From an uncultured Gammaproteobacteria bacterium (GTDB lineage Bacteria > Patescibacteriota > Microgenomatia > Daviesbacterales > UBA10151), in NCBI GenBank assembly GCA_964446685.1, contig CAYUPO010000004.1:20164-84163 (forward strand): a stretch of 64,000 nt of DNA. The letters are read 5' to 3'. Below, piece after piece: positions 581 through 53,117 of the stretch; within the stretch, counting starts at the first letter, position 1, and each line of letters opens with the position of its first letter. The translations under genes and the position numbers were made by a program. The notes under the pieces were generated by a model. It was not told the DNA's origin. It worked only from the letters and a program-made list of their open reading frames with translations, and made no database searches.

Positions 581-1135
581 CTAATAATCAACCCCGGGCT
601 TAGCTAAAAATCCTTTTTGGAAGGGGTGTTTTACCTGCACCATCTCTGTTACTAGATCTGCGTGTTTAAAAAGAGATGGTCTGCCATGATGTCCTGTTAA
701 GACCAAATCCAACTTTTCCGGTTTATCTTTAATCAGCTGAATGACCTGTTTCTCAGACAACAGCTTGCCCGCAACTGCTCCGACTATCTCATCGGCTATC
801 ACCACATCCCATTTGCCTTTTGTAACTTCCTTATATAATAAGTCATACGTCTCCCCTGCCATCTTCTTATGCTCTTTGATGTCATATTGGTCATCAAAGA
901 TCTTCACAAATCCTAAGCCACCTTGGATTAATTTAACGTAAGGCGCAAGCATTTTAACCCCTTCCTGCTCCCCGGTAAACCAGACTTTACCAAACTGCAC
1001 AATCAACACCTTCTTCTTATACCCCGCAGCCCGCAAGGCCAACCCCAAAGCCCCCGTAGTCTTCCCCTTCCCTTCACCGGTATACACAATCACCAGCCCC
1101 TTAGTCGTCTCCTTATATTTAGGTTCTTTTGCCAT
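581..1135 (-). CDS. cobO: cob(I)yrinic acid a,c-diamide / corrinoid adenosyltransferase (CobA/CobO/BtuR family)
   Basis: P-loop TGEGKGKTTGALGLALRAAG and overall CobA-type layout. The ORF track starts at 1219, but the internal Met MAKEPKYK (ATG at 1135) gives the family-typical ~185 aa. Confidence 0.8.
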   Translation of the reverse strand: MAKEPKYKETTKGLVIVYTGEGKGKTTGALGLALRAAGYKKKVLIVQFGKVWFTGEQEGVKMLAPYVKLIQGGLGFVKIFDDQYDIKEHKKMAGETYDLLYKEVTKGKWDVVIADEIVGAVAGKLLSEKQVIQLIKDKPEKLDLVLTGHHGRPSLFKHADLVTEMVQVKHPFQKGFLAKPGVDY

Positions 1136-1246
1136 AAATGTAGTATATCTTTCCCAAATAAAAAGTCCAACAATCGTTTGCCTTATATCCTTAAGGTATT
1201 TTAAAGTATTACTTGACATCCTTTTGGGTAATACTATAATCCATGT

Positions 1247-2011
1247 ATGCCGAAAAATCCTGATTTATTAGCTAAAATTCAAACCAGAAGAATTCCCCAA
1301 GGAGTTCATACCCCTTACGATACCAGAGATTATGTACCATACACTCAACAACCTGAAGCAAGTATTGCTGGATCATACATAGAAGGCCTTTTATCACCAC
1401 GACATGGAATTGCTATTGAAGGAGTGAGTATACAAACTGATCCCGGCAGAAGCACAACTCATTTCTCTTTTGCTTTACATGGAGATAAATTACCGACATT
1501 CCGCATGCTTAATCTTGATCAGTGGAGGATCGATAAATCCGTAGAATTAGGCGAACTTTTTAACCCCGCACTTACTGATACTAATGATTCATATCATCAG
1601 CAGGGTGCTGCATTATTAAAACGAAGAGTGCAAGTAAGTCCTTTACATAGTGGACCATATTTATTTCCTGAACAGGTTAAGCATGGGGATATAGGTACTG
1701 AAATCCAACCAATCGTTTTGACTGACATATCCGCCCATCCATTTGTATATAGAATTGGTTCTGTCTTAGTAGGAGAAGATCTTACCCGAGCTTTAGTAAG
1801 TGTGACTACACAAGAAGCATCAGCATTTTTAAAAGATGAAATTAGTTTACTAGCTGATAATAATCGAGATACTTCAGCCCGATTACAACAAATAATTAAT
1901 GATGCAACTCTTGACTTAAAAGCTAAACAATACCAATTTCGAGCTGAAACTGATCATCTTCGAGGAATACGGGATAGATTAGTACAACGAACAACACCTC
2001 CACAATCCTAA
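1247..2011 (+). CDS. hypothetical protein
   Basis: 254-aa ORF with coding-like composition and no recognised motif. Confidence 0.45.
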   Translation: MPKNPDLLAKIQTRRIPQGVHTPYDTRDYVPYTQQPEASIAGSYIEGLLSPRHGIAIEGVSIQTDPGRSTTHFSFALHGDKLPTFRMLNLDQWRIDKSVELGELFNPALTDTNDSYHQQGAALLKRRVQVSPLHSGPYLFPEQVKHGDIGTEIQPIVLTDISAHPFVYRIGSVLVGEDLTRALVSVTTQEASAFLKDEISLLADNNRDTSARLQQIINDATLDLKAKQYQFRAETDHLRGIRDRLVQRTTPPQS

Positions 2012-2044
2012 AAAAATTCCCAATTCTCTAACGGTGAATTTACC

Positions 2045-2590
2045 TGAAGAACATACTAACACATGGAATAACCGCAAGAATAGCAGTTTTTAAGAGAATG
2101 GAGTGCTACATGACAACGATTAATGTAGTAACGTAATTCTCGCAAGAAATGTTACTCAACACATTGAATAACCACAGGAGTAACATTTTTTAAGATATTG
2201 AAGTGCTATTGAGAAAACTATCTCAATAGTAGCGGAAATATCGAAAGAAATGTTACTCAGCACATTGAATAACCACAGGAGTAACATTTTTTAAGATATT
2301 GAAGTGCTATTGAGAAAACTATCTCAATAGTAGCGGAAATATCGAAAGAAATGCTATTAACATATGCTATAACCACAGCTATAGCATTTCTTAAGATAAC
2401 GGAGTGCTACAAGACAGCGATCATTGTAGCAATGTAGTTATCGCAAAAAGTGCTAACACATAGAATACCCGCAAGAATAGCACTTTTTAAGAGAATGGAG
2501 TGCTACATGACAACGATTAATGTAGTAACGTAATTCTCGCAAGAAATGTTACTCAGCACATTGAATAACCACAGGAGTAACATTTCTTAC
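2045..2590. repeat. tandem array of ~97-103 bp structured repeat units (about 5.5 copies) overlapping the 3' end of nrdJ
   Basis: Units start near 2050, 2149, 2250, 2351, 2449 and 2546. Each has hairpin 1 (e.g. ATGTTACTC-loop CAGCACATTGAATAACCACAG-GAGTAACAT) followed by TTTTTTAAGA, a conserved GGAGTGCTA, then hairpin 2. Stems covary between units. Confidence 0.85.
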
Positions 2591-5090
2591 ATCCTTCTTC
2601 ATAGACAAAGGATGCCTGGCCGCATTCTGGGCAGAGGTCGGCGGTTACTTTGGTGGGGTCAGTTACACCCTGGGAAAAAAGCGGAGCTCCGACTACGTCA
2701 TCCACTCCGGTGTTCGGAGTCGAAGCTGGGCTGGTTTCTGCTTTTTCTTCAGTTAAATTAAGTGGCATTGTTTCAGCTTTGGCTTCACCCAGGTCTAGTC
2801 CACCCAAAGCCATATCTTCTGACAAAACTTTCGCAACAGCGTCTCCCAAACTCATCACCCGGTCTTTGCCAAATCCAACATGGGAAGATCCGCCAATTCC
2901 CCGCAGCTGAGAAGCAATCTTTTGAGCTACCTCTTTTGGATTGGAGTTCGCAGTTCTAGCCAGTCTCAAAGACATCGATATCAATCGTCCGATCGCTTCA
3001 GCATCAGCCATAGTATGCATTCCACCCCGTCCAATGGTAATAAATACTTCAAACGGCATATCCTGTTCATCACGGTTGATAGTCACATACGCTTCACCAA
3101 CCGGAGTTAATACTTTGTAGGTTCTTCCCCGCAAAATCATTGGTCTGGAAGTAGTCACTGCCGGAGCAATTACTTCCTCTTTCTTTTCTTCCTTCTTCTC
3201 TTCGTGATAGAGCACTCCGGCTCTTGATCCGTCCCGGAAAAATGTCACACCTTTACAACCCATTTTGTAAGCTTCCATATAAAGCTCCTTCACCTGGTCC
3301 ACTGTAAAGTCGAAAGATGCATTGGCTGTTTTGGAGATGGATGAATCAGTATATCCCTGAATCAAAGCCTGAACTCTGACATGATCAAGTGGTGACATAT
3401 CATTAGCTCCGACATAATAATCAGGCTTCTGTTCATAAGTTTTGTCAGGATTTTCCTTCTGCCACTGTTCATACAGTGGATGCAAAATAGTATGCTCACC
3501 AATCCGGTCGCGTCTGATAAATTTAAAATCAAATACTGGTTCAATTCCTGAAGATACTCCAGCTAACAAAGAAGTAGTTCCGGTAGGCGCCTGAGTCAGG
3601 ATAACCGCATTTCGGATCCCCTGTTTACTGATTTTATCCTGAATATATTTTGGCAACTGTTTAATAAAATGACCCTGTAAGTATTTTTCAGCATCAAATT
3701 TTGGAAAAGCGCCTTTTTCTTTCGCCAGATCAGATGATGTTTCATAAGAAGCGTCCCTGATAGTCTGATAAATCTTCTCAATTACCGGCATCGCTTCAGC
3801 ACTACCATAACGCAATTTCATTTTAATCAGGGCGTCTCCCAGACCCATTGTTCCGATACCAGTCCGGCGGATCTCTTTGGCTTTGATCTCATTTTGTTCC
3901 CAGAAGTAATAATTGGCATCGACTACATTGTCCATAAATCTCATTGAAGTCCTGGTTTTAGCATCCAGATCTTCAAAATCAAAAGATCCATCTTCTTTAA
4001 CAAATGCGGACAAATTCATCGCCCCCAGATTACAGACTGCCCATTCACCCAATGGCTGTTCACCACATGGATTAGTTGAAAGCAATTTTTCAAAATACCA
4101 GGTGTTACTCCATTTATTACTTCTTTCCAAAAAGTGCAGACCAGGTTCAGCTGATTTCCAGGCGGAAGTACAAATCTGATCCCAGATCTCCCGGGCTGGC
4201 ATTCTGGAATACTCAACCACTTTTTTACCCATATCAGTCCAGTTTTCCAGCACTCCATCCCATTTTTCATCATATTCAGGATCGGCAATATCCGGAAATA
4301 CTGTTACCCATTCTTCATCTTTTTGAACAGCTTCCATAAATTTATCTGACACACAGACAGACAGGTTGGCTCCAGGAATAGACACGCCGTCTTCTTTAGC
4401 ATGAATAAATTCAATTACATCAGGATGCCAGTCATGCAGCATCAGCATCAAAGCTCCGCGTCTGGATCCACCCTGCTGGATCACATCATGATTGGCAGCA
4501 GAATAAAGCTTAGCCCAGGAAACAGGACCTGAGGATTTACCGTTTACTTTTCTGACTCTGGCTCCATTTGGTCTAAGGGAAGACAAATTAATACCTACAC
4601 CACCACCTCGGGCCTGGATCTCAACAGTGTGAGTAATATTTTCCATAATTCCTCCCCGGGAATCTTTTGGTGAAGGGATCACATAACAGTTAAAAAAAGT
4701 TACTTCATATCCAGTCCCAGCTCCTGACAAAATACGACCAGCCGGAACAAATTTAAATCCTTCCATTGCTTCATAAAACCTTTGACCCCACAGTTTTCTC
4801 AGCTCTGGTGTCTTTTCCATATGAGCAATCCCCGCAGCCACTCTCTGCCACATCTCTTCCGGAGTTGTTTCAACTGGATCTCCTTTAGCATCTTTTAAAG
4901 AATACCTGTCCATGAAAACTTTTTGTCTGACACCATCAAGCTCTGTTTTTGTCCGGATAGTTGGCATTATCAATTCTGAAGTAGGAACAATACCATTTTT
5001 GGATTTAGAGATTTTGGTCTGAGGAACAGCTACCTGCAAAGCAACTGATTTTAAACTTTTTCCTGCTGTTTTTGTTTTAGTTTGTTTCAT
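2553..5090 (-). CDS. nrdJ: ribonucleotide reductase, adenosylcobalamin-dependent class II (NrdJ-like), with C-terminal zinc ribbon
   Basis: NPCGEQPLGEW active-site motif, no ATP cone, C-terminal CPECG...CKKCYSCGYSMC ribbon, NrdR gene directly upstream. The ORF extends to 5141, but MKQTKTKT (ATG 5088-5090) is the likelier start. Confidence 0.75.
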   Translation of the reverse strand: MKQTKTKTAGKSLKSVALQVAVPQTKISKSKNGIVPTSELIMPTIRTKTELDGVRQKVFMDRYSLKDAKGDPVETTPEEMWQRVAAGIAHMEKTPELRKLWGQRFYEAMEGFKFVPAGRILSGAGTGYEVTFFNCYVIPSPKDSRGGIMENITHTVEIQARGGGVGINLSSLRPNGARVRKVNGKSSGPVSWAKLYSAANHDVIQQGGSRRGALMLMLHDWHPDVIEFIHAKEDGVSIPGANLSVCVSDKFMEAVQKDEEWVTVFPDIADPEYDEKWDGVLENWTDMGKKVVEYSRMPAREIWDQICTSAWKSAEPGLHFLERSNKWSNTWYFEKLLSTNPCGEQPLGEWAVCNLGAMNLSAFVKEDGSFDFEDLDAKTRTSMRFMDNVVDANYYFWEQNEIKAKEIRRTGIGTMGLGDALIKMKLRYGSAEAMPVIEKIYQTIRDASYETSSDLAKEKGAFPKFDAEKYLQGHFIKQLPKYIQDKISKQGIRNAVILTQAPTGTTSLLAGVSSGIEPVFDFKFIRRDRIGEHTILHPLYEQWQKENPDKTYEQKPDYYVGANDMSPLDHVRVQALIQGYTDSSISKTANASFDFTVDQVKELYMEAYKMGCKGVTFFRDGSRAGVLYHEEKKEEKKEEVIAPAVTTSRPMILRGRTYKVLTPVGEAYVTINRDEQDMPFEVFITIGRGGMHTMADAEAIGRLISMSLRLARTANSNPKEVAQKIASQLRGIGGSSHVGFGKDRVMSLGDAVAKVLSEDMALGGLDLGEAKAETMPLNLTEEKAETSPASTPNTGVDDVVGAPLFSQGVTDPTKVTADLCPECGQASFVYEEGCKKCYSCGYSMC

Positions 5091-6795: not shown

Positions 6796-6830
6796 AATTT
6801 ATTAGTATTAAGTATTAAGTATTAAGTATT
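6796..6830. repeat. short tandem repeat (TATTAAGT)x4
   Basis: Seen directly: ttagtattaagtattaagtattaagtattaagag. Confidence 0.8.
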
Positions 6831-6919
6831 AAGAGAAAAGTAGCAAATTCCCTAGATTCATTACGATTTACTTACTTATACACAATAATAATATTACTCT
6901 AAATAACGATACTACACAC

Positions 6920-7480: not shown

Positions 7481-7970
7481 CTAAAGTAAAATTCAAAATA
7501 ACAAATTCAAAATTTCAAACAAATTCAAAAAATAAAATCAAAAACTAGCTTTGCTGGGATTTAAATAAGATACTACTTAATATCTTTAATAGTTCATTTG
7601 ACTCAAGAAGTAACATTTTTCTTTCTTTTTCTAGTATAGGGTTATTTACCGTTTCAACTTCTAACATCTCAAGCCAATATCTACTTTCTTTAGACTCTTT
7701 CCTCGAAATTCTGATTCTATGCAGAAAATCTTTTTTACTAAGAGATTCATTAGCTTCAATATAGTTAGCTCCTACCGAACCTGAAGATCGAACCACTTGT
7801 TTTCCATCTTCTAATGCTCCAATTGTTTTTGGTAGCGATTTAACAAATATTCTGACTTTTTTCCCAAACTCAAGTGTTCTATCTTCTAAATCATATTGTT
7901 TTGGATTTTCTATTTTATCCATTTGAATTTATTTGAAATTTTGAATTTGTTATTTTGAATTTTACTTTAG
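7481..7970. mobile_element. cassette bounded by a perfect 39-bp inverted repeat, carrying a four-helix-bundle gene (IVS-like / MITE-like element)
   Basis: 7481-7519 ctaaagtaaaattcaaaataacaaattcaaaatttcaaa is the exact reverse complement of 7932-7970. The right arm overlaps the last two codons of the PPIase gene. Confidence 0.45.
7545..7922 (-). CDS. four-helix-bundle protein (TIGR02436; 23S rRNA intervening-sequence protein family)
   Basis: 125 aa; matches the family pattern EF.KK...LP......Q..RS..SVGANYIEANES...KDF..R..IS.KE..ES..WL. Confidence 0.8.
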   Translation of the reverse strand: MDKIENPKQYDLEDRTLEFGKKVRIFVKSLPKTIGALEDGKQVVRSSGSVGANYIEANESLSKKDFLHRIRISRKESKESRYWLEMLEVETVNNPILEKERKMLLLESNELLKILSSILFKSQQS

Positions 7971-33257: not shown

Positions 33258-33362
33258 AGACAATTTGAAATTCACAATTTGAAATTTGAAGTTAATTTGA
33301 AATCTTTAAAATTTAATTTTGAAAACCAACTTTTCAATTCAAATTTCAAATTTCAAATTTCA
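33258..33362. repeat. AT-rich palindromic TTGAAAT/ATTTCAA intergenic repeat
   Basis: gaaattcacaatttgaaatttgaag ... caaatttcaaatttcaaatttcaaatt. Confidence 0.5.
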
Positions 33363-33364
33363 AA

Positions 33365-33823
33365 TTATTTTAATCTATACTGCTCTAGCTCTTTTAGCTT
33401 ATTTATCCGTCTAATATGTCTTTCTTCACCTGTGAAAGCGGTATTTAAAAATGTTTTTACCATCTCATAAGCAGTATCAGCTATCAGTACATCTGAAGCT
33501 AAACAGATGATATTGGCATCCTCATGTTCTCTGGACTGAGCAGCTCTTTTTTCATCAAATACCAGGCAGGATCTGACCCCCTTAACTTTATTTGCCGCCA
33601 TATCCACTCCAACTCCGGATCCGCAAATTAAAACCCCCTTGCTATCTGAATCCTCCGCAACAGCCTGTCCGACTGCCTGAGCATAATCAACATAATCATC
33701 GGCCGGATCCAAGTTTTCATTTCCCATATCTTCATATTCCAGTCCGTCAGCATCCATCCGCCTTTTTAGCTCTTCTTTTAATTCGAATCCTCTGTGATCA
33801 GCTCCGATATAAATCATGAACAT
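33365..33823 (-). CDS. rpiB: ribose-5-phosphate isomerase B
   Basis: IYIGADHRGFELKE ... VLICGSGVGVDMAANK; 152 aa. Confidence 0.85.
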   Translation of the reverse strand: MFMIYIGADHRGFELKEELKRRMDADGLEYEDMGNENLDPADDYVDYAQAVGQAVAEDSDSKGVLICGSGVGVDMAANKVKGVRSCLVFDEKRAAQSREHEDANIICLASDVLIADTAYEMVKTFLNTAFTGEERHIRRINKLKELEQYRLK

Positions 33824-52614: not shown

Positions 52615-52700
52615 TATATTCGTAACACGATACACACAACACGAAACACCAACACAATTTATTCGTATTGCTTATTGCGTATCACTTTTCACTAACAAAT

Positions 52701-53021
52701 ATGGATTTTACAAAGAAAAAATGTGTTCCCTGTGAAACAGGTGAAGGCAAACTGACAATCGATAAAATAAAAGAATTTATGCCGGCAGTCGAAGGCTGGC
52801 TTTTAGCTGGCGATAATCTGGTTAAAGAATTTAAATTTAATAACTTCAGAGAATCAATCAAATTTATCAACCAGGTAGCTGATCTGGCCGAAGAAGAAGG
52901 CCACCATCCGGACATCATCTGTTTTTACGACAAAGTTCGCCTTCAACTAACAACTCACGCCGCCCACGGCCTAACAGAAAACGATTTCATAATGGGAGCG
53001 AAGATTAACAATCTGAGCTAA
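52701..53021 (+). CDS. pterin-4a-carbinolamine dehydratase (PCD/DCoH)
   Basis: EEGHHPDI ... THAAHGLTENDF signature. The likely start is MDFTKKKC, within ORF 52668..53021. Confidence 0.85.
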   Translation: MDFTKKKCVPCETGEGKLTIDKIKEFMPAVEGWLLAGDNLVKEFKFNNFRESIKFINQVADLAEEEGHHPDIICFYDKVRLQLTTHAAHGLTENDFIMGAKINNLS

Positions 53022-53091
53022 CATTTCAAGCTCTGCTTATCTTAGCCGCCAAAATTAACAATTTTTAAATAAAGGGCTAAGAGAGCTTTGC

Positions 53092-53117
53092 TCATAATGG
53101 GAGCGAAGATTAACAAT
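53092..53117. repeat. 26-bp direct repeat of the PCD gene 3' end
   Basis: TCATAATGGGAGCGAAGATTAACAAT occurs at 52987-53012 (inside the CDS) and again here. Confidence 0.7.

What the first reader, a model, noticed from the sequence alone, without database searches (positions are those of the whole stretch)
2045..2590. Array of ~100-bp two-hairpin repeats with compensatory stem substitutions, last copy spanning the nrdJ stop codon
About 5.5 head-to-tail units lie in the convergent gap between the 1247..2011 gene and nrdJ.

Hairpin 1 keeps the loop CACATTGAATAACCACAG but changes stem sequence while preserving pairing: ATGTTACTC/GAGTAACAT, ATGCTAT/ATAGCAT and GTGCTA/TAGCAC. It is followed by TTTTTTAAGA and a conserved GGAGTGCTA.

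Hairpin 2 also covaries: CTACAT/ATGTAG, GCTACAA/TTGTAGC and CTATTGAGA/TCTCAATAG.

The units are arranged A-B-B-C-A-B, so the array grew by higher-order duplication. The final hairpin 1 overlaps the last codons (CYSCGYSMC, stop at 2553) of the ribonucleotide reductase zinc ribbon. The array therefore looks seeded by the gene's own 3'-terminal hairpin.

Covariation argues for selection on secondary structure. Candidates are an RNA element (tandem terminators or a stability element, a small structured RNA family) or a cruciform protein-binding array. It is not CRISPR-like, because there are no unique spacers.
Basis: seen in the sequence. Interest (0 to 1): 0.65.

Follow-up and report, generated by a model that had tools for sequence, protein, structure and literature searches.

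The report
Stacked spare 3' ends of nrdJ
Behind an essential DNA-precursor gene (nrdJ) of a tiny Candidatus Daviesbacteria bacterium lie five extra, silently re-coded copies of the gene's last 11 codons, each in its own hairpin; they look like old and imported gene ends piled up by recombination, not a new RNA gene.

Summary
The array is real: 2054-2589, period about 100, 5.4 copies. On the nrdJ strand every unit holds an intact copy of the gene's last 11 codons plus a stop, (K)KCYSCGYS[M/I]C*.

The copies differ almost only by synonymous changes, including Ser TCN/AGY switches and all three stop codons (0 of 100,000 simulations). Hairpin 1 pairs the KKCY(S) codons with the bases that start at the stop codon. 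The "compensatory" stem changes are therefore arm 2 following codon choice. Covariation is genuine, and a further helix closes each spacer.

The copy furthest from nrdJ has no hairpin. It sits where relatives have their single nrdJ stop, so units were added on the gene side.

Homologous units occur once each in two distant Daviesbacteria genomes, and cassette types are shared between genomes. A close relative of one of them shows a contraction to a chimeric single end.

Best reading: a stack of displaced or imported gene-end cassettes. Each is a stop-spanning, terminator-like hairpin plus a second hairpin domain. The stack was built by recombination and local duplication, and probably acts as a two-way transcription barrier. 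How units are added is not resolved. The interior of the array has no independent assembly support.

The parts
2553..5090 (-). nrdJ, class II (B12-dependent) ribonucleotide reductase, 845 aa, ending ...EEGCKKCYSCGYSMC*
   Evidence: ORF list and translation. There is a 100% match to P0001, and homologues carry PF02867, PF00317 and PF12637. The C-terminal motif is conserved across the clade.
2541..2588 (-). Unit U6, type B. This is the functional gene end: the KK...C codons plus TGA (2553-2588), inside hairpin 1. Arm 1 (2575-2588) is the KKCY(S) codons. Arm 2 (2541-2554) starts in the stop codon.
   Evidence: Inverted repeat I16 is 14/14 complementary. RNA fold is -21.9 kcal/mol, z -4.5, on the sense strand and -16.0, z -4.1, on the antisense strand.
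2489..2540 (-). Spacer alpha. A closing helix (GAGAAT/ATTCTC in the sense direction; + strand 2533-2538 and 2491-2496) surrounds hairpin 2 (+ strand CTACAT 2503-2508 and ATGTAG 2520-2525).
   Evidence: The MFE fold of the unit gives hairpin 1 followed directly by a closed domain 2.
2445..2488 (-). Unit U5, type A. Displaced copy KKCYSCGYSMC plus TAG (2453-2488) in hairpin 1 (arms 2445-2455 and 2478-2488).
   Evidence: Pattern match. All 11 nucleotide differences from U6 are synonymous. Fold z -3.2. 46/52 identical to the functional nrdJ end of L027.
2393..2444 (-). Spacer alpha'. Closing helix GATAAC/GTTATC. Hairpin 2 is GCTACAA/TTGTAGC (+ strand 2406-2412 and 2424-2430).
2346..2392 (-). Unit U4, type C. 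Displaced copy KKCYSCGYSIC plus TAA (2357-2392) in hairpin 1. Both Ser codons are switched to AGC. No in-frame start codon is possible.
   Evidence: Fold -21.8 kcal/mol, z -5.2. The Ile variant occurs naturally in the nrdJ of L023.
2192..2345 (-). Spacer beta, unit U3 (type B, coding copy 2257-2292), and a second spacer beta. Hairpin 2 is CTATTGAGA/TCTCAATAG at + strand 2307-2315/2322-2330 and 2206-2214/2221-2229. The closing helix is GATATT/AATATC.
   Evidence: (I5, I6). Spacer beta is homologous to the spacer of L027 (z about 8).
2144..2191 (-). Unit U2, type B. Displaced copy KKCYSCGYSMC plus TGA (2156-2191) in hairpin 1. It is followed on the + strand by TTTTTT.
   Evidence: The junction with U1 is reproduced in Logan contigs L009 and L010 (L011 breaks earlier, in the alpha spacer).
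2092..2143 (-). Second copy of spacer alpha, part of the 137-nt duplication.
   Evidence: D1, 96% identity.
2056..2091 (-). Unit U1, type A'. KNCYSCGYSMC plus TAG, with no hairpin. Inferred to be the ancestral nrdJ end, now displaced.
   Evidence: No fold signal (z -0.1 and +1.2). Its stop lies 44 nt from the stop of the 254-aa gene, compared with 35-65 nt for the single nrdJ stop in relatives. Its flank resembles those of L015 and L016. It carries one non-synonymous change, K to N.
1213..2011 (+). Convergent 254-aa gene of unknown function (1247-2011), with a 12/12 consensus promoter TTGACA-16-TATAAT (1213-1240) ending 6 nt before the ATG. It bounds the array.
   Evidence: Its only relatives are four remote homologues. 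Three lie in the same slot next to the nrdJ end, with a Y1_Tnp gene alongside; the fourth (L017) has different neighbours.
581..1219 (-). cobA (ATP:corrinoid adenosyltransferase). In the closest array-free relative it follows nrdJ directly.
   Evidence: Pfam PF02572, E 1e-50. Synteny in L001-L004.

Best explanation
The array is a stack of six versions of the 3' end of nrdJ. Only the first (2553-2588) belongs to the gene. The other five are displaced copies of the last 11 codons plus a stop codon and are not translated.

Each hairpin-bearing unit is a gene-end cassette with two parts:
- A long hairpin pairs the Lys-Lys-Cys-Tyr(-Ser) codons with the sequence that begins at the stop codon. It is flanked by an A-tract and a T-tract, the layout of a two-way intrinsic terminator.
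- Directly after it comes a second small hairpin domain closed by its own helix.

The cassettes diverged while each was a working gene end, most simply in different Daviesbacteria lineages. That explains why they differ only synonymously and why each arm 2 matches its own arm 1. They were then added one in front of another on the gene side, pushing older ends downstream. The processes were recombination with incoming related DNA plus local unequal recombination or slippage. Recombination between copies can shrink the stack again without harming the enzyme, because every copy encodes the same peptide.

The hairpins most likely stop transcription in both directions between nrdJ and the strongly promoted convergent gene, and protect the nrdJ mRNA 3' end.

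Shown: the anatomy, the synonymous-only divergence, the covariation, the position of the ancestral end, the presence of homologous units in other genomes, and one contraction. Inferred: import from other lineages, the route of addition, and the terminator function.
For: 1. Six in-register copies of CYSCGYS[M/I]C plus stop lie on the minus strand, with 0 expected by chance. They sit 100, 96, 100, 101 and 100 nt apart, so mostly in different frames.

2. Pairs of copies differ at 7-12 of 36 nt with 0-1 amino-acid change. 0 of 100,000 random-substitution simulations do as well in each of six comparisons. The bases upstream of the KK codons are not conserved at the amino-acid level.

3. Hairpin 1 folds for U2-U6 and not for U1. 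Covariation covers hairpin 1, the spacer-closing helix and hairpin 2. Arm 2 matches the arm 1 of its own unit better than that of the next unit (sequences).

4. U1 is at the ancestral stop position and has a relative-like flank.

5. The same architecture is present in L025 (75-nt unit) and L027 (about 100-nt unit). In each, a new hairpin-bearing end is followed by a spacer and then an old end that is followed by that lineage's own downstream sequence. In L025 the distal copy is the one closer to its relatives' ends.

6. The three carriers are scattered in the NrdJ tree, and their nearest relatives lack units.

7. Cassette types are shared across genomes. U5 and the L027 proximal copy are 46/52 identical, including 14/16 non-coding bases. 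The adjacent nrdJ sequence is only 36/51 identical. Spacer beta matches the L027 spacer at z about 8. The L025 proximal copy and the L027 distal copy differ at 2 codons.

8. L031 is 94-95% identical to L025 on both flanks but has a single end. That end equals the left half of the L025 proximal copy joined to the right half of its distal copy, which is the product of a contraction.

9. L009 differs from the window by 16.6% in cobA, by 0/765 in the 254-aa gene and by 3/178 in the array part. This indicates recent exchange of that block between lineages.

10. The last residues are part of the Cys-rich C-terminal domain needed for NrdJ turnover (PMC5704485). This explains the strict protein-level constraint.
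Against: - No mechanism places a new unit exactly in front of the resident KK codons. Plain homologous recombination needs a donor that already has two copies.
- Two scans of JGI metagenome contigs and one scan of viral contigs found no further arrays. The sample is three carrier lineages (the window's, also seen partially in Logan contigs L009-L011, plus L025 and L027).
- Synonymous sites are near saturation even between nearest relatives: third-position identity is about 0.4-0.6. Donor lineages and conversion tracts therefore cannot be traced.
- The L025 spacer is not significantly similar to the window spacers overall. That event could be independent.
- The 20-nt loop is atypical for intrinsic terminators, and the consensus scan reports none here.
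- Relatives that have the convergent gene but no array lack an obvious terminator.
- The interior of the array is unverified by any second assembly.
Confidence: 0.55

Rival explanations
1. The unit is a miniature mobile element of 75-100 nt. It moves as a hairpin-forming single strand or small circle, for example through an HUH Y1 transposase or another site-specific enzyme acting in trans. It inserts precisely in front of the last 11 codons of nrdJ and brings its own replacement coding end and terminator. Repeated hits build the stack, with the newest unit next to the gene.
For: - The junction is the same in all cases: TCTT or TCTA, then AARAAR.
- Homologous units occur in two NrdJ clades with unrelated downstream contexts.
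- New units lie on the gene side.
- The units are hairpin-rich, and each spacer has inverted ends.
- A Y1_Tnp gene flanked by lineage-specific palindromes sits in exactly this cobA-nrdJ slot in L015, L016 and L018.
- The nrdJ 3' flank collects other small palindromic repeats in relatives.
Against: - The window has no Y1_Tnp and no other copy of the unit.
- The palindromes next to the Y1_Tnp genes are unrelated in sequence to the unit arms.
- Relatives that carry Y1_Tnp have no array.
- No conserved cleavage motif or target duplication can be defined.
- Nothing was found in viral contigs or in two metagenome scans.
- In L025, arm 2 pairs with the half of the proximal copy that a circle-integration model would assign to the target, not to the element.
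Confidence: 0.2
2. This is purely local evolution. The nrdJ end with its terminator hairpin was duplicated in tandem within this lineage. All divergence arose in place. RNA structure is under selection. The coding copies stay intact because frequent contractions return distal copies to service, so defective ones are purged.
For: - Recent local duplications exist.
- A second gene end in the same window is tandemly repeated with identical copies.
- One contraction that re-uses a distal half-copy is documented.
- Covariation is real.
Against: - Turnover fast enough to purge non-synonymous changes should homogenise the copies (inference from how tandem repeats evolve together). Yet A, B and C differ at most synonymous sites: 10 of 12 codons between U5 and U6.
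- Under simple decay, about half of all differences should be non-synonymous. About 3 of 50 are.
- Type A and spacer beta are shared with a genome of the other NrdJ clade.
- The nearest relatives lack units.
Confidence: 0.13
3. The internal copies are small genes. Each unit encodes a Cys-rich micro-protein of 29-43 aa ending in KKCYSCGYSMC, which mimics the redox-active tail of NrdJ.
For: - Mechanical ORFs with TTG, ATG or GTG starts end at four of the five internal copies.
- The peptide-level conservation is very strong.
- The Cys-rich tail can transfer electrons between subunits (abstract of PMC5704485).
Against: - Unit C has no possible start, because an in-frame TAA follows the TTG.
- The N-terminal parts differ completely between unit types, and conservation starts exactly where homology to nrdJ starts.
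- No Shine-Dalgarno-like sequence is present, and the putative TTG starts lie inside the hairpin stem.
- The distal copies in U1 and L027 carry K-to-N and Y-to-C changes.
Confidence: 0.05
4. The stack is an assembly artefact. Variant nrdJ ends from co-existing strains were threaded in series by the assembler.
For: - The source is a metagenome-assembled genome.
- Short-read contigs from three runs break inside the array.
- Strains differing at this locus co-occur in related samples.
Against: - The U1-alpha-U2 tandem junction is reproduced in two Logan assemblies (L009, L010) and its U1-alpha part in a third (L011).
- Two-copy versions exist in two unrelated MAGs.
- Every junction type in the array (B-alpha, A-alpha', C-beta, B-beta) must exist in the reads.
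Confidence: 0.05

Closest known systems
Integration of e14 (and, from my own knowledge, phage 21) into the 3' end of E. coli icd, leaving the displaced icdC fragment
   Same: An incoming sequence supplies a replacement 3' end, so the gene stays intact. The original end survives downstream as an untranslated fragment. Recombination or excision between the two copies yields a chimeric but functional gene (PMC13626634). L031 compared with L025 is the analogous case here.
   Different: Here no prophage or integrase lies between the copies, only 39-65 nt of structured spacer. Up to five displaced ends are stacked. Each new end carries a hairpin that pairs coding sequence with post-stop sequence.
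Site-specific accretion of integrative elements and their remnants at the 3' end of a conserved gene, such as ICESt1/ICESt3 and CIMEs at fda of Streptococcus thermophilus, or tRNA 3'-fragment footprints next to tRNA genes. This comparison is from my own knowledge and was not tested here.
   Same: Repeated additions at the conserved 3' end of one gene give a row of direct repeats that each contain the gene end.
   Different: Those arrays are separated by kilobase-scale elements or irregular remnants and depend on an identifiable integrase. Here the period is a regular ~75-100 nt and no recombinase is linked.
REP/BIME clusters and their Y1 transposases (RAYTs). The family definition is from my own knowledge. 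Y1_Tnp neighbours were observed here.
   Same: Both are clusters of alternating inverted short arms with two kinds of linker, in a 3' intergenic region, able to form hairpins on either strand. A Y1_Tnp gene with flanking palindromes occupies the same slot in relatives.
   Different: The unit is not dispersed: there is no other copy in 64 kb. The arms are nrdJ codons and change with codon choice. The window has no Y1_Tnp.
Bidirectional intrinsic terminators between convergent genes
   Same: The layout is A-tract, stem, T-tract, folding on both strands, placed between convergent genes of which one has a consensus promoter.
   Different: The loop is 20 nt. One arm and the loop are coding sequence. 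The structure is repeated five times. Termination was not measured.
Integron attC arrays
   Same: Both are arrays of hairpin sites conserved in structure rather than in sequence, with the newest unit at the proximal end.
   Different: There are no GTTRRRY/RYYYAAC boxes: type A arms lack GTT/AAC altogether. There is no intI and there are no cassette ORFs.

Membership tests
Tandem DNA repeat array | Head-to-tail copies with a regular period | tested here: met
   TRF: 2054-2589, period 101, 5.4 copies, 77% matches. Stop-to-stop spacings are 100, 96, 100, 101 and 100 nt.
Displaced gene-end (icd/icdC-type) duplication | A downstream copy of the gene's 3' coding end that preserves the reading of the peptide | tested here: met
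   There are five extra copies of (K)KCYSCGYS[M/I]C plus stop. Divergence is synonymous-only: 0/100,000 simulations.
Displaced gene-end (icd/icdC-type) duplication | An integrated element with its recombinase lies between the two copies | tested here: not met
   Only 39-65 nt of non-coding spacer separates copies. No integrase was found among the neighbours that were scanned.
Displaced gene-end (icd/icdC-type) duplication | Recombination between the copies gives a chimeric, intact gene | tested here: met
   The single end of L031 equals the left half of the L025 proximal copy joined to the right half of its distal copy. The flanks are 94-95% identical.
Intrinsic (Rho-independent) terminator | A stable stem-loop followed by a T/U run | tested here: inconclusive
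   Stems are 11-14 (up to 22) bp, with z -1.6 to -6.4 on the two strands. TTTTTT or CTTTTT follows on the + strand and TTTCTT on the - strand. The 20-nt loop fails the consensus scan.
Intrinsic (Rho-independent) terminator | Transcript 3' ends map at the T run | not testable with these tools
   No RNA data are available.
Structured RNA family (Rfam) | Match to a curated covariance model | tested here: not met
   The best hit is 24 bits against a gathering score of 80, a plant miRNA model. Nothing credible was found.
Structured RNA family (new) | Covarying helices across independent instances | tested here: met
   Nine pairs change on both sides. 92% of cells are paired against 37-49% when slid. 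0/500 shuffles reach the score. Units come from three genomes.
Structured RNA family (new) | Instances at more than one kind of locus | tested here: not met
   All instances are at nrdJ 3' ends.
REP/BIME with RAYT | Many dispersed copies in the genome | tested here: not met
   There is no unit copy outside 2040-2600 in the 64-kb window. The rest of the genome was not available.
REP/BIME with RAYT | A cognate Y1 transposase gene flanked by the same repeats | tested here: not met
   The window has no Y1_Tnp (tblastn E 0.4 or worse). Relatives have Y1_Tnp in this slot, but with unrelated palindromes.
Integron attC | Conserved R boxes (RYYYAAC / GTTRRRY) and an intI integrase | tested here: not met
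   Type A arms (AAAAAGTGCTA / TAGCACTTTTT) contain no such boxes. No integrase was seen in the neighbourhood.
CRISPR | Identical repeats separated by unique spacers | tested here: not met
   The spacers are themselves repeated and homologous (alpha, alpha', beta).
Small-protein gene family | Each copy has a start codon and a conserved full-length product | tested here: not met
   Unit C has no start. The N-terminal parts are unrelated between unit types.

The most novel reading that the evidence does not exclude
The units are the smallest known self-complementing insertion elements. Each is a 75-100-nt hairpin cassette that spreads between Daviesbacteria genomes, possibly as single-stranded DNA handled by the locus-associated Y1 (HUH) transposases. 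It inserts in frame into the invariant last 11 codons of an essential gene and carries its own synonymous copy of those codons plus a terminator, so the host survives every hit. The stack would then record successive invasions.
Probability: 0.18. Interest if true: 0.85.

Novelty: new variant of a known kind. Interest (0 to 1): 0.62.

Why it matters
Apparent RNA covariation can be driven by codon choice in a neighbouring or former coding sequence. Screens that use covariation to find structured RNAs need that control.

If the stacking reading holds, the conserved end of an essential gene acts as a recurrent recombination site in bacteria of the Candidate Phyla Radiation. The array is then a readable record of exchange between lineages in organisms that cannot be cultured. 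Related loci show both gain of a divergent end and contraction back to a single chimeric end.

If the units turn out to be mobile on their own, they would be a new, extremely small class of insertion element that repairs the gene it interrupts.

The hairpins also offer a testable case of terminators built from coding sequence that spans the stop codon.

Tried and rejected
- Cyanobacterial repeat families. My first guess came from the low G+C and the heptamer repeats. I dropped it: there is no HIP1 site in the window, and the NrdJ homologues place the window in Candidatus Daviesbacteria.
- Rfam search of 1800-2800. Only sub-threshold noise.
- Two-copy pattern scans with a 55-85 nt gap in genome contigs and metagenome contigs. 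Both gave 0 hits. The gap and the Tyr codon requirement were too strict for L025 and L027, which the single-copy pattern then found.
- A second metagenome scan with a junction-specific pattern. 0 hits.
- Viral contigs. 0 hits, so there is no sign of a phage attP or a phage-borne nrdJ with this end.
- The 254-aa neighbour as a recombinase or homing endonuclease. It has no Pfam hit and only four remote homologues. The AlphaFold model is unusable, mean pLDDT 43, so no fold search was run.
- The search for related loci with the alignment of the 254-aa family.
- Conversion tracts in nrdJ next to the units. Untestable, because synonymous sites are near saturation even with the nearest relatives.
- NrdR-based look-up to reach the nrdJ side of the array in other samples. 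The contigs were too short.
- Look-up of P0004, chosen because its contig ends just after nrdJ. The break is caused by a different dispersed palindromic repeat, not an array.
- Common origin of the nrdJ units and the second repeated gene end at 52987-53117. The similarity is not significant, z about 2.
- Attenuator-like alternative pairing between TAGCAC of hairpin 2 and GTGCTA of the next arm 1. It exists only for type A units and is not conserved in B or C (sequences).
- Strand asymmetry of G:U pairs as a way to decide RNA strand. The result is mixed: U4, U5 and U6 fold better as sense RNA, and U2 and U3 as antisense.
Full report
**1. What is in the sequence**

Tandem Repeats Finder reports one array at 2054-2589, with period 101, 5.4 copies and 77% matches. 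It lies between two convergent genes.

- nrdJ is on the minus strand. Its stop codon is at 2553-2555 and the product is 845 aa from Met.
- A 254-aa gene of unknown function is on the plus strand at 1247-2011.

Units run A'-B-B-C-A-B on the plus strand. There is a 137-nt duplication at 96% identity (2056-2192 and 2453-2589) and a 101-nt duplication at 94% (2126-2226 and 2227-2327). The hairpin at the gene end has perfect 14-nt arms at 2541-2554 and 2575-2588, and these overlap the stop codon.

**2.

Read on the nrdJ strand, every unit contains an intact copy of the last 11 codons of nrdJ plus a stop codon. The peptide is KKCYSCGYSMC* in four copies (one of them the gene's own end), KKCYSCGYSIC* once and KNCYSCGYSMC* once. 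A degenerate pattern for CYSCGYS[M/I]C plus stop matches six times, all in the array and all on the minus strand, with zero expected by chance.

The copies use different codons. Cys is TGT or TGC, Tyr is TAC or TAT, Ser is TCC, TCT, TCA or AGC, Gly is GGT or GGG, and the stops are TGA, TAG and TAA. U5 and U6 differ at 11 of 36 nt without any amino-acid change. U4 differs from U6 at 10 nt with one conservative change.

In each of six comparisons, none of 100,000 simulations with the same number of random substitutions preserved the peptide as well. Conservation at the amino-acid level begins exactly at the two Lys codons, where homology to nrdJ begins. The bases before them read VALHSL, VALRYL or IALQYL and are not conserved as protein.

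**3. What the hairpins are**

Arm 1 of hairpin 1 is the Lys-Lys-Cys-Tyr(-Ser) codons. The 20-nt loop is the remaining codons. Arm 2 starts in or right after the stop codon.

- type B: AAGAAATGTTACTC / GAGTAACATTTCTT
- type A: AAAAAGTGCTA / TAGCACTTTTT
- type C: AGAAATGCTAT / ATAGCATTTCT

The loop is not constant, contrary to the finding. It changes at synonymous positions or by Ser codon switches, with a single Met-to-Ile change in unit C.

Folding supports hairpin 1 for U2-U6 on both strands, with z between -1.6 and -6.4. It does not support a hairpin for U1, where z is -0.1 and +1.2.

Whole-unit folds show a second domain directly after hairpin 1. The helix is GAGAAT/ATTCTC in alpha, GATAAC/GTTATC in alpha' and GATATT/AATATC in beta.

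I counted pairs on seven units from three genomes. 92% of cells pair, against 37-49% when the partners are slid. Nine pairs change on both sides. No shuffle out of 500 reaches the observed covariation score. Selection or templating for pairing is therefore real. G:U pairs favour the sense strand in some units and the antisense strand in others, which fits a structure used on both strands or at the DNA level.

**4. Organism and neighbourhood**

NrdJ homologues place the window in Candidatus Daviesbacteria, in the Patescibacteria/CPR group. The C-terminal EEGCKKCYSCGYSMC is invariant across the closest 20 or so homologues. It belongs to the Cys-rich C-terminal domain shown to be needed for turnover of class II reductases (PMC5704485).

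The local gene order is nrdR, nrdJ, the array, the 254-aa gene on the opposite strand, and cobA. In the closest array-free relative (86% NrdJ identity) the nrdJ stop is followed by cobA 41 nt downstream.

The 254-aa gene has a 12/12 consensus promoter that ends 6 nt before its ATG. An exhaustive HMMER search finds only four remote homologues, at 29-34% identity. Three of the four lie in the same slot, in the order cobA, a Y1_Tnp (IS200-like) gene, the homologue, then the nrdJ end. In those loci nrdJ has a single end 35-65 nt from the homologue's stop.

**5. Polarity of the stack**

The stop of U1 is 44 nt from the stop of the 254-aa gene, which is the position of the single nrdJ stop in those relatives. 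Its flank (TAGTATGTTCTTCAGG, then AATTCTCTAA on the other side) resembles the flanks in L016 and L015.

U1 has no hairpin and carries a Lys-to-Asn change. I infer that U1 is the ancestral gene end, and that the hairpin-bearing units were added between it and the body of nrdJ. This is the reverse of "seeded by the gene's own 3'-terminal hairpin".

**6. The same thing in other genomes**

A scan of one genome per species for the coding pattern returned 11 loci. Two carry an extra end.

- L025 has nrdJ ending in a hairpin-bearing copy, a 39-nt spacer, and then a second KKCYSCGYSMC*. That second copy is followed by the sequence that follows the single stop in its relatives.
- L027 has a type-A-like functional end, a beta-like spacer with hairpin 2, and then KKCYSCGCSMC*.

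In both genomes the two copies differ by 7-12 nt. The differences include Ser TCN/AGY switches, with 0-1 amino-acid change.

In the NrdJ tree the window falls in one clade; its nearest relative, L018 at 89%, has no unit. L025 and L027 fall in another clade and are not sisters, and their nearest relatives also lack units.

Cassette types cross these boundaries.

- U5 and the L027 functional end are 46/52 identical, including 14 of 16 non-coding bases after the stop. The adjacent nrdJ sequence is 36/51 identical, and the window's own functional end matches at 28/52.
- Spacer beta and the L027 spacer align at z about 8.
- The L025 proximal copy and the L027 distal copy differ at two codons.
- The Ile variant of unit C is the natural end of nrdJ in L023.

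**7. Turnover and exchange**

L031 is a Logan contig 94-95% identical to L025 on both flanks, and it has a single nrdJ end. That end equals the left half of the L025 proximal copy joined to the right half of the L025 distal copy, and it lacks arm 2. Arm 2 in L025 pairs with the proximal left half. The simplest reading is therefore a contraction by recombination between the two copies, not an insertion into an L031-like site. Distal copies can thus return to service.

L009 is a contig from another sample. It differs from the window by 106/639 in cobA, by 0/765 in the 254-aa gene and by 3/178 in the first two units. That block was therefore exchanged recently between lineages that are otherwise well diverged.

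**8. Why local duplication alone does not explain it**

If the distal copies had simply decayed after a local duplication, about half of the differences between copies should be non-synonymous. This estimate is my own, from codon degeneracy. About 3 of 50 are.

If fast expansion and contraction exposed every copy to selection, the copies should also be homogenised. This is an inference from how tandem repeats evolve together. Yet types A and B differ in 10 of 12 codons.

The pattern fits cassettes that diverged as working gene ends, most simply in different lineages, and were then brought together. Local duplication clearly adds to this.

I could not establish how a new unit is placed exactly in front of the resident Lys-Lys codons. 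The junction always reads TCTT or TCTA followed by AARAAR. Three routes remain open:

- homologous recombination from a donor that already has two copies;
- homology-facilitated illegitimate recombination;
- a hairpin-directed site-specific step.

**9. Function**

Each hairpin has an A-tract, a stem and a T-tract, and it folds on both strands. It sits between nrdJ and a gene with a perfect consensus promoter. A two-way terminator or insulator, together with protection of the nrdJ mRNA 3' end, is the most economical function.

It is not shown. The loop is 20 nt, and the consensus terminator scan does not report these sites. Relatives with the same convergent gene manage without an array.

The internal copies are unlikely to be translated. 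They lie in shifting frames. Unit C has no possible start. The mechanical ORFs that do exist have unrelated N-terminal parts.

**10. Comparison with known systems**

The nearest precedent is the e14 element in E. coli icd. The element supplies a replacement 3' end, the old end remains as the icdC fragment, and excision recombines the two into a chimeric functional gene (PMC13626634).

Here there is no element or integrase between the copies, the period is a regular ~75-100 nt, and up to five ends are stacked. Each new end has a co-varying hairpin that spans the stop codon.

I also considered REP/BIME clusters with RAYTs, integron attC arrays and CRISPR. Each fails on a defining feature, as set out in the membership table. 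I file the finding as a new variant of a known kind. The miniature-mobile-element reading is the most novel possibility that is not excluded.

**11. Limits**

- Only three carrier lineages are known (the window's, seen partially in three Logan contigs, plus L025 and L027).
- Two metagenome scans and one viral scan found nothing more.
- The interior of the window's array (U3-U6) has no independent assembly support.
- Synonymous saturation prevents tracing donors.
- No expression data exist.

Noticed in passing
window 52987-53117 (+), downstream part of the ORF at 52668-53021: A second gene end in this window is tandemly repeated. It belongs to a 117-aa ORF that I take from the sequence to be a pterin-4a-carbinolamine dehydratase-like protein; I ran no domain search on it. 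The last codons, ..IMGAKINN.., occur at 52987-53012 in the gene, at 53037-53062 (69% identical) and at 53092-53117 (26/26 identical). The period is about 50-55 nt, with a hairpin between copies, and the gene is convergent with a 512-aa ORF that looks like a glutamyl-tRNA synthetase (also by eye). No significant sequence similarity to the nrdJ units (z about 2).
   Followed up: partly
L009 4335-5943 compared with window 581-2189: A contig from another sample is 16.6% different from the window in cobA. It is 0/765 different in the 254-aa gene and 3/178 different in the first two array units. The switch is sharp and falls at the cobA start and the promoter of the 254-aa gene. This indicates recent horizontal exchange of that block.
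   Followed up: partly
window 1213-2011 (+); L015 1222-2034, L016 2964-3716, L018 4301-5074, L017 1555-2349: The 254-aa gene belongs to a very small, fast-evolving family: five cluster representatives among 1.84 billion, at 29-34% identity. Four of the five have a conserved near-consensus promoter ending about 6 nt before the ATG, which suggests a near-leaderless transcript; L016 has a longer leader. It usually sits between a Y1_Tnp gene and the nrdJ end. The function is unknown and the structure model is unusable (pLDDT 43).
   Followed up: partly
L015 452-486; L016 about 1985-2005 and about 2725-2745; L018 about 3515-3541: Perfect or near-perfect palindromes specific to each lineage lie just upstream of the -35 box of the Y1_Tnp genes. 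In L016 a second one lies downstream of the gene. The structure is conserved while the sequence changes. The arrangement resembles REPs flanking a RAYT. The Y1_Tnp proteins are 67% identical between L015 and L018.
   Followed up: partly
L007 6544-6624 (also L005, L022, L024, L025, L026, L027, L031 downstream of nrdJ): A conserved element sits between nrdJ and an unannotated 379-525-aa gene in the second NrdJ clade. It scores 33.2 bits against the Rfam AdoCbl-II riboswitch aptamer, just below the gathering score of 36.5 (E 2.5e-6). It is probably a divergent B12 riboswitch controlling an unknown gene, possibly a transporter.
   Followed up: partly
L027 4509-4537, L032 3254-3281, L026 downstream of the nrdJ stop; L021 and L027 (GACGATAGAAGATAG... 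element): Other small palindromic repeats collect immediately after the nrdJ stop in relatives. They include GTCATTCCnGCGAAGGCnGGAATCC, GTCATTGCGAGAAGCGAAGCGACGTGGCAATC and a palindromic element of about 100 nt. One of them ends a Logan contig, which suggests it is dispersed in that genome.
   Followed up: no
L005 3651-3705: In L005, the single nrdJ end also has a hairpin that spans the stop codon (AAAAATGTTA / TAACATTTTT). There is no second coding copy downstream. This could be a cassette whose displaced end was lost.
   Followed up: no
window 6800-6833, 33262-33366, 7489-7543: There are short heptamer tandem repeats: TATTAAG x5, AATTTGA x9 and TTCAAAT x4 (the last at 100% identity). There are also other low-complexity A/T repeats in intergenic regions.
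   Followed up: no
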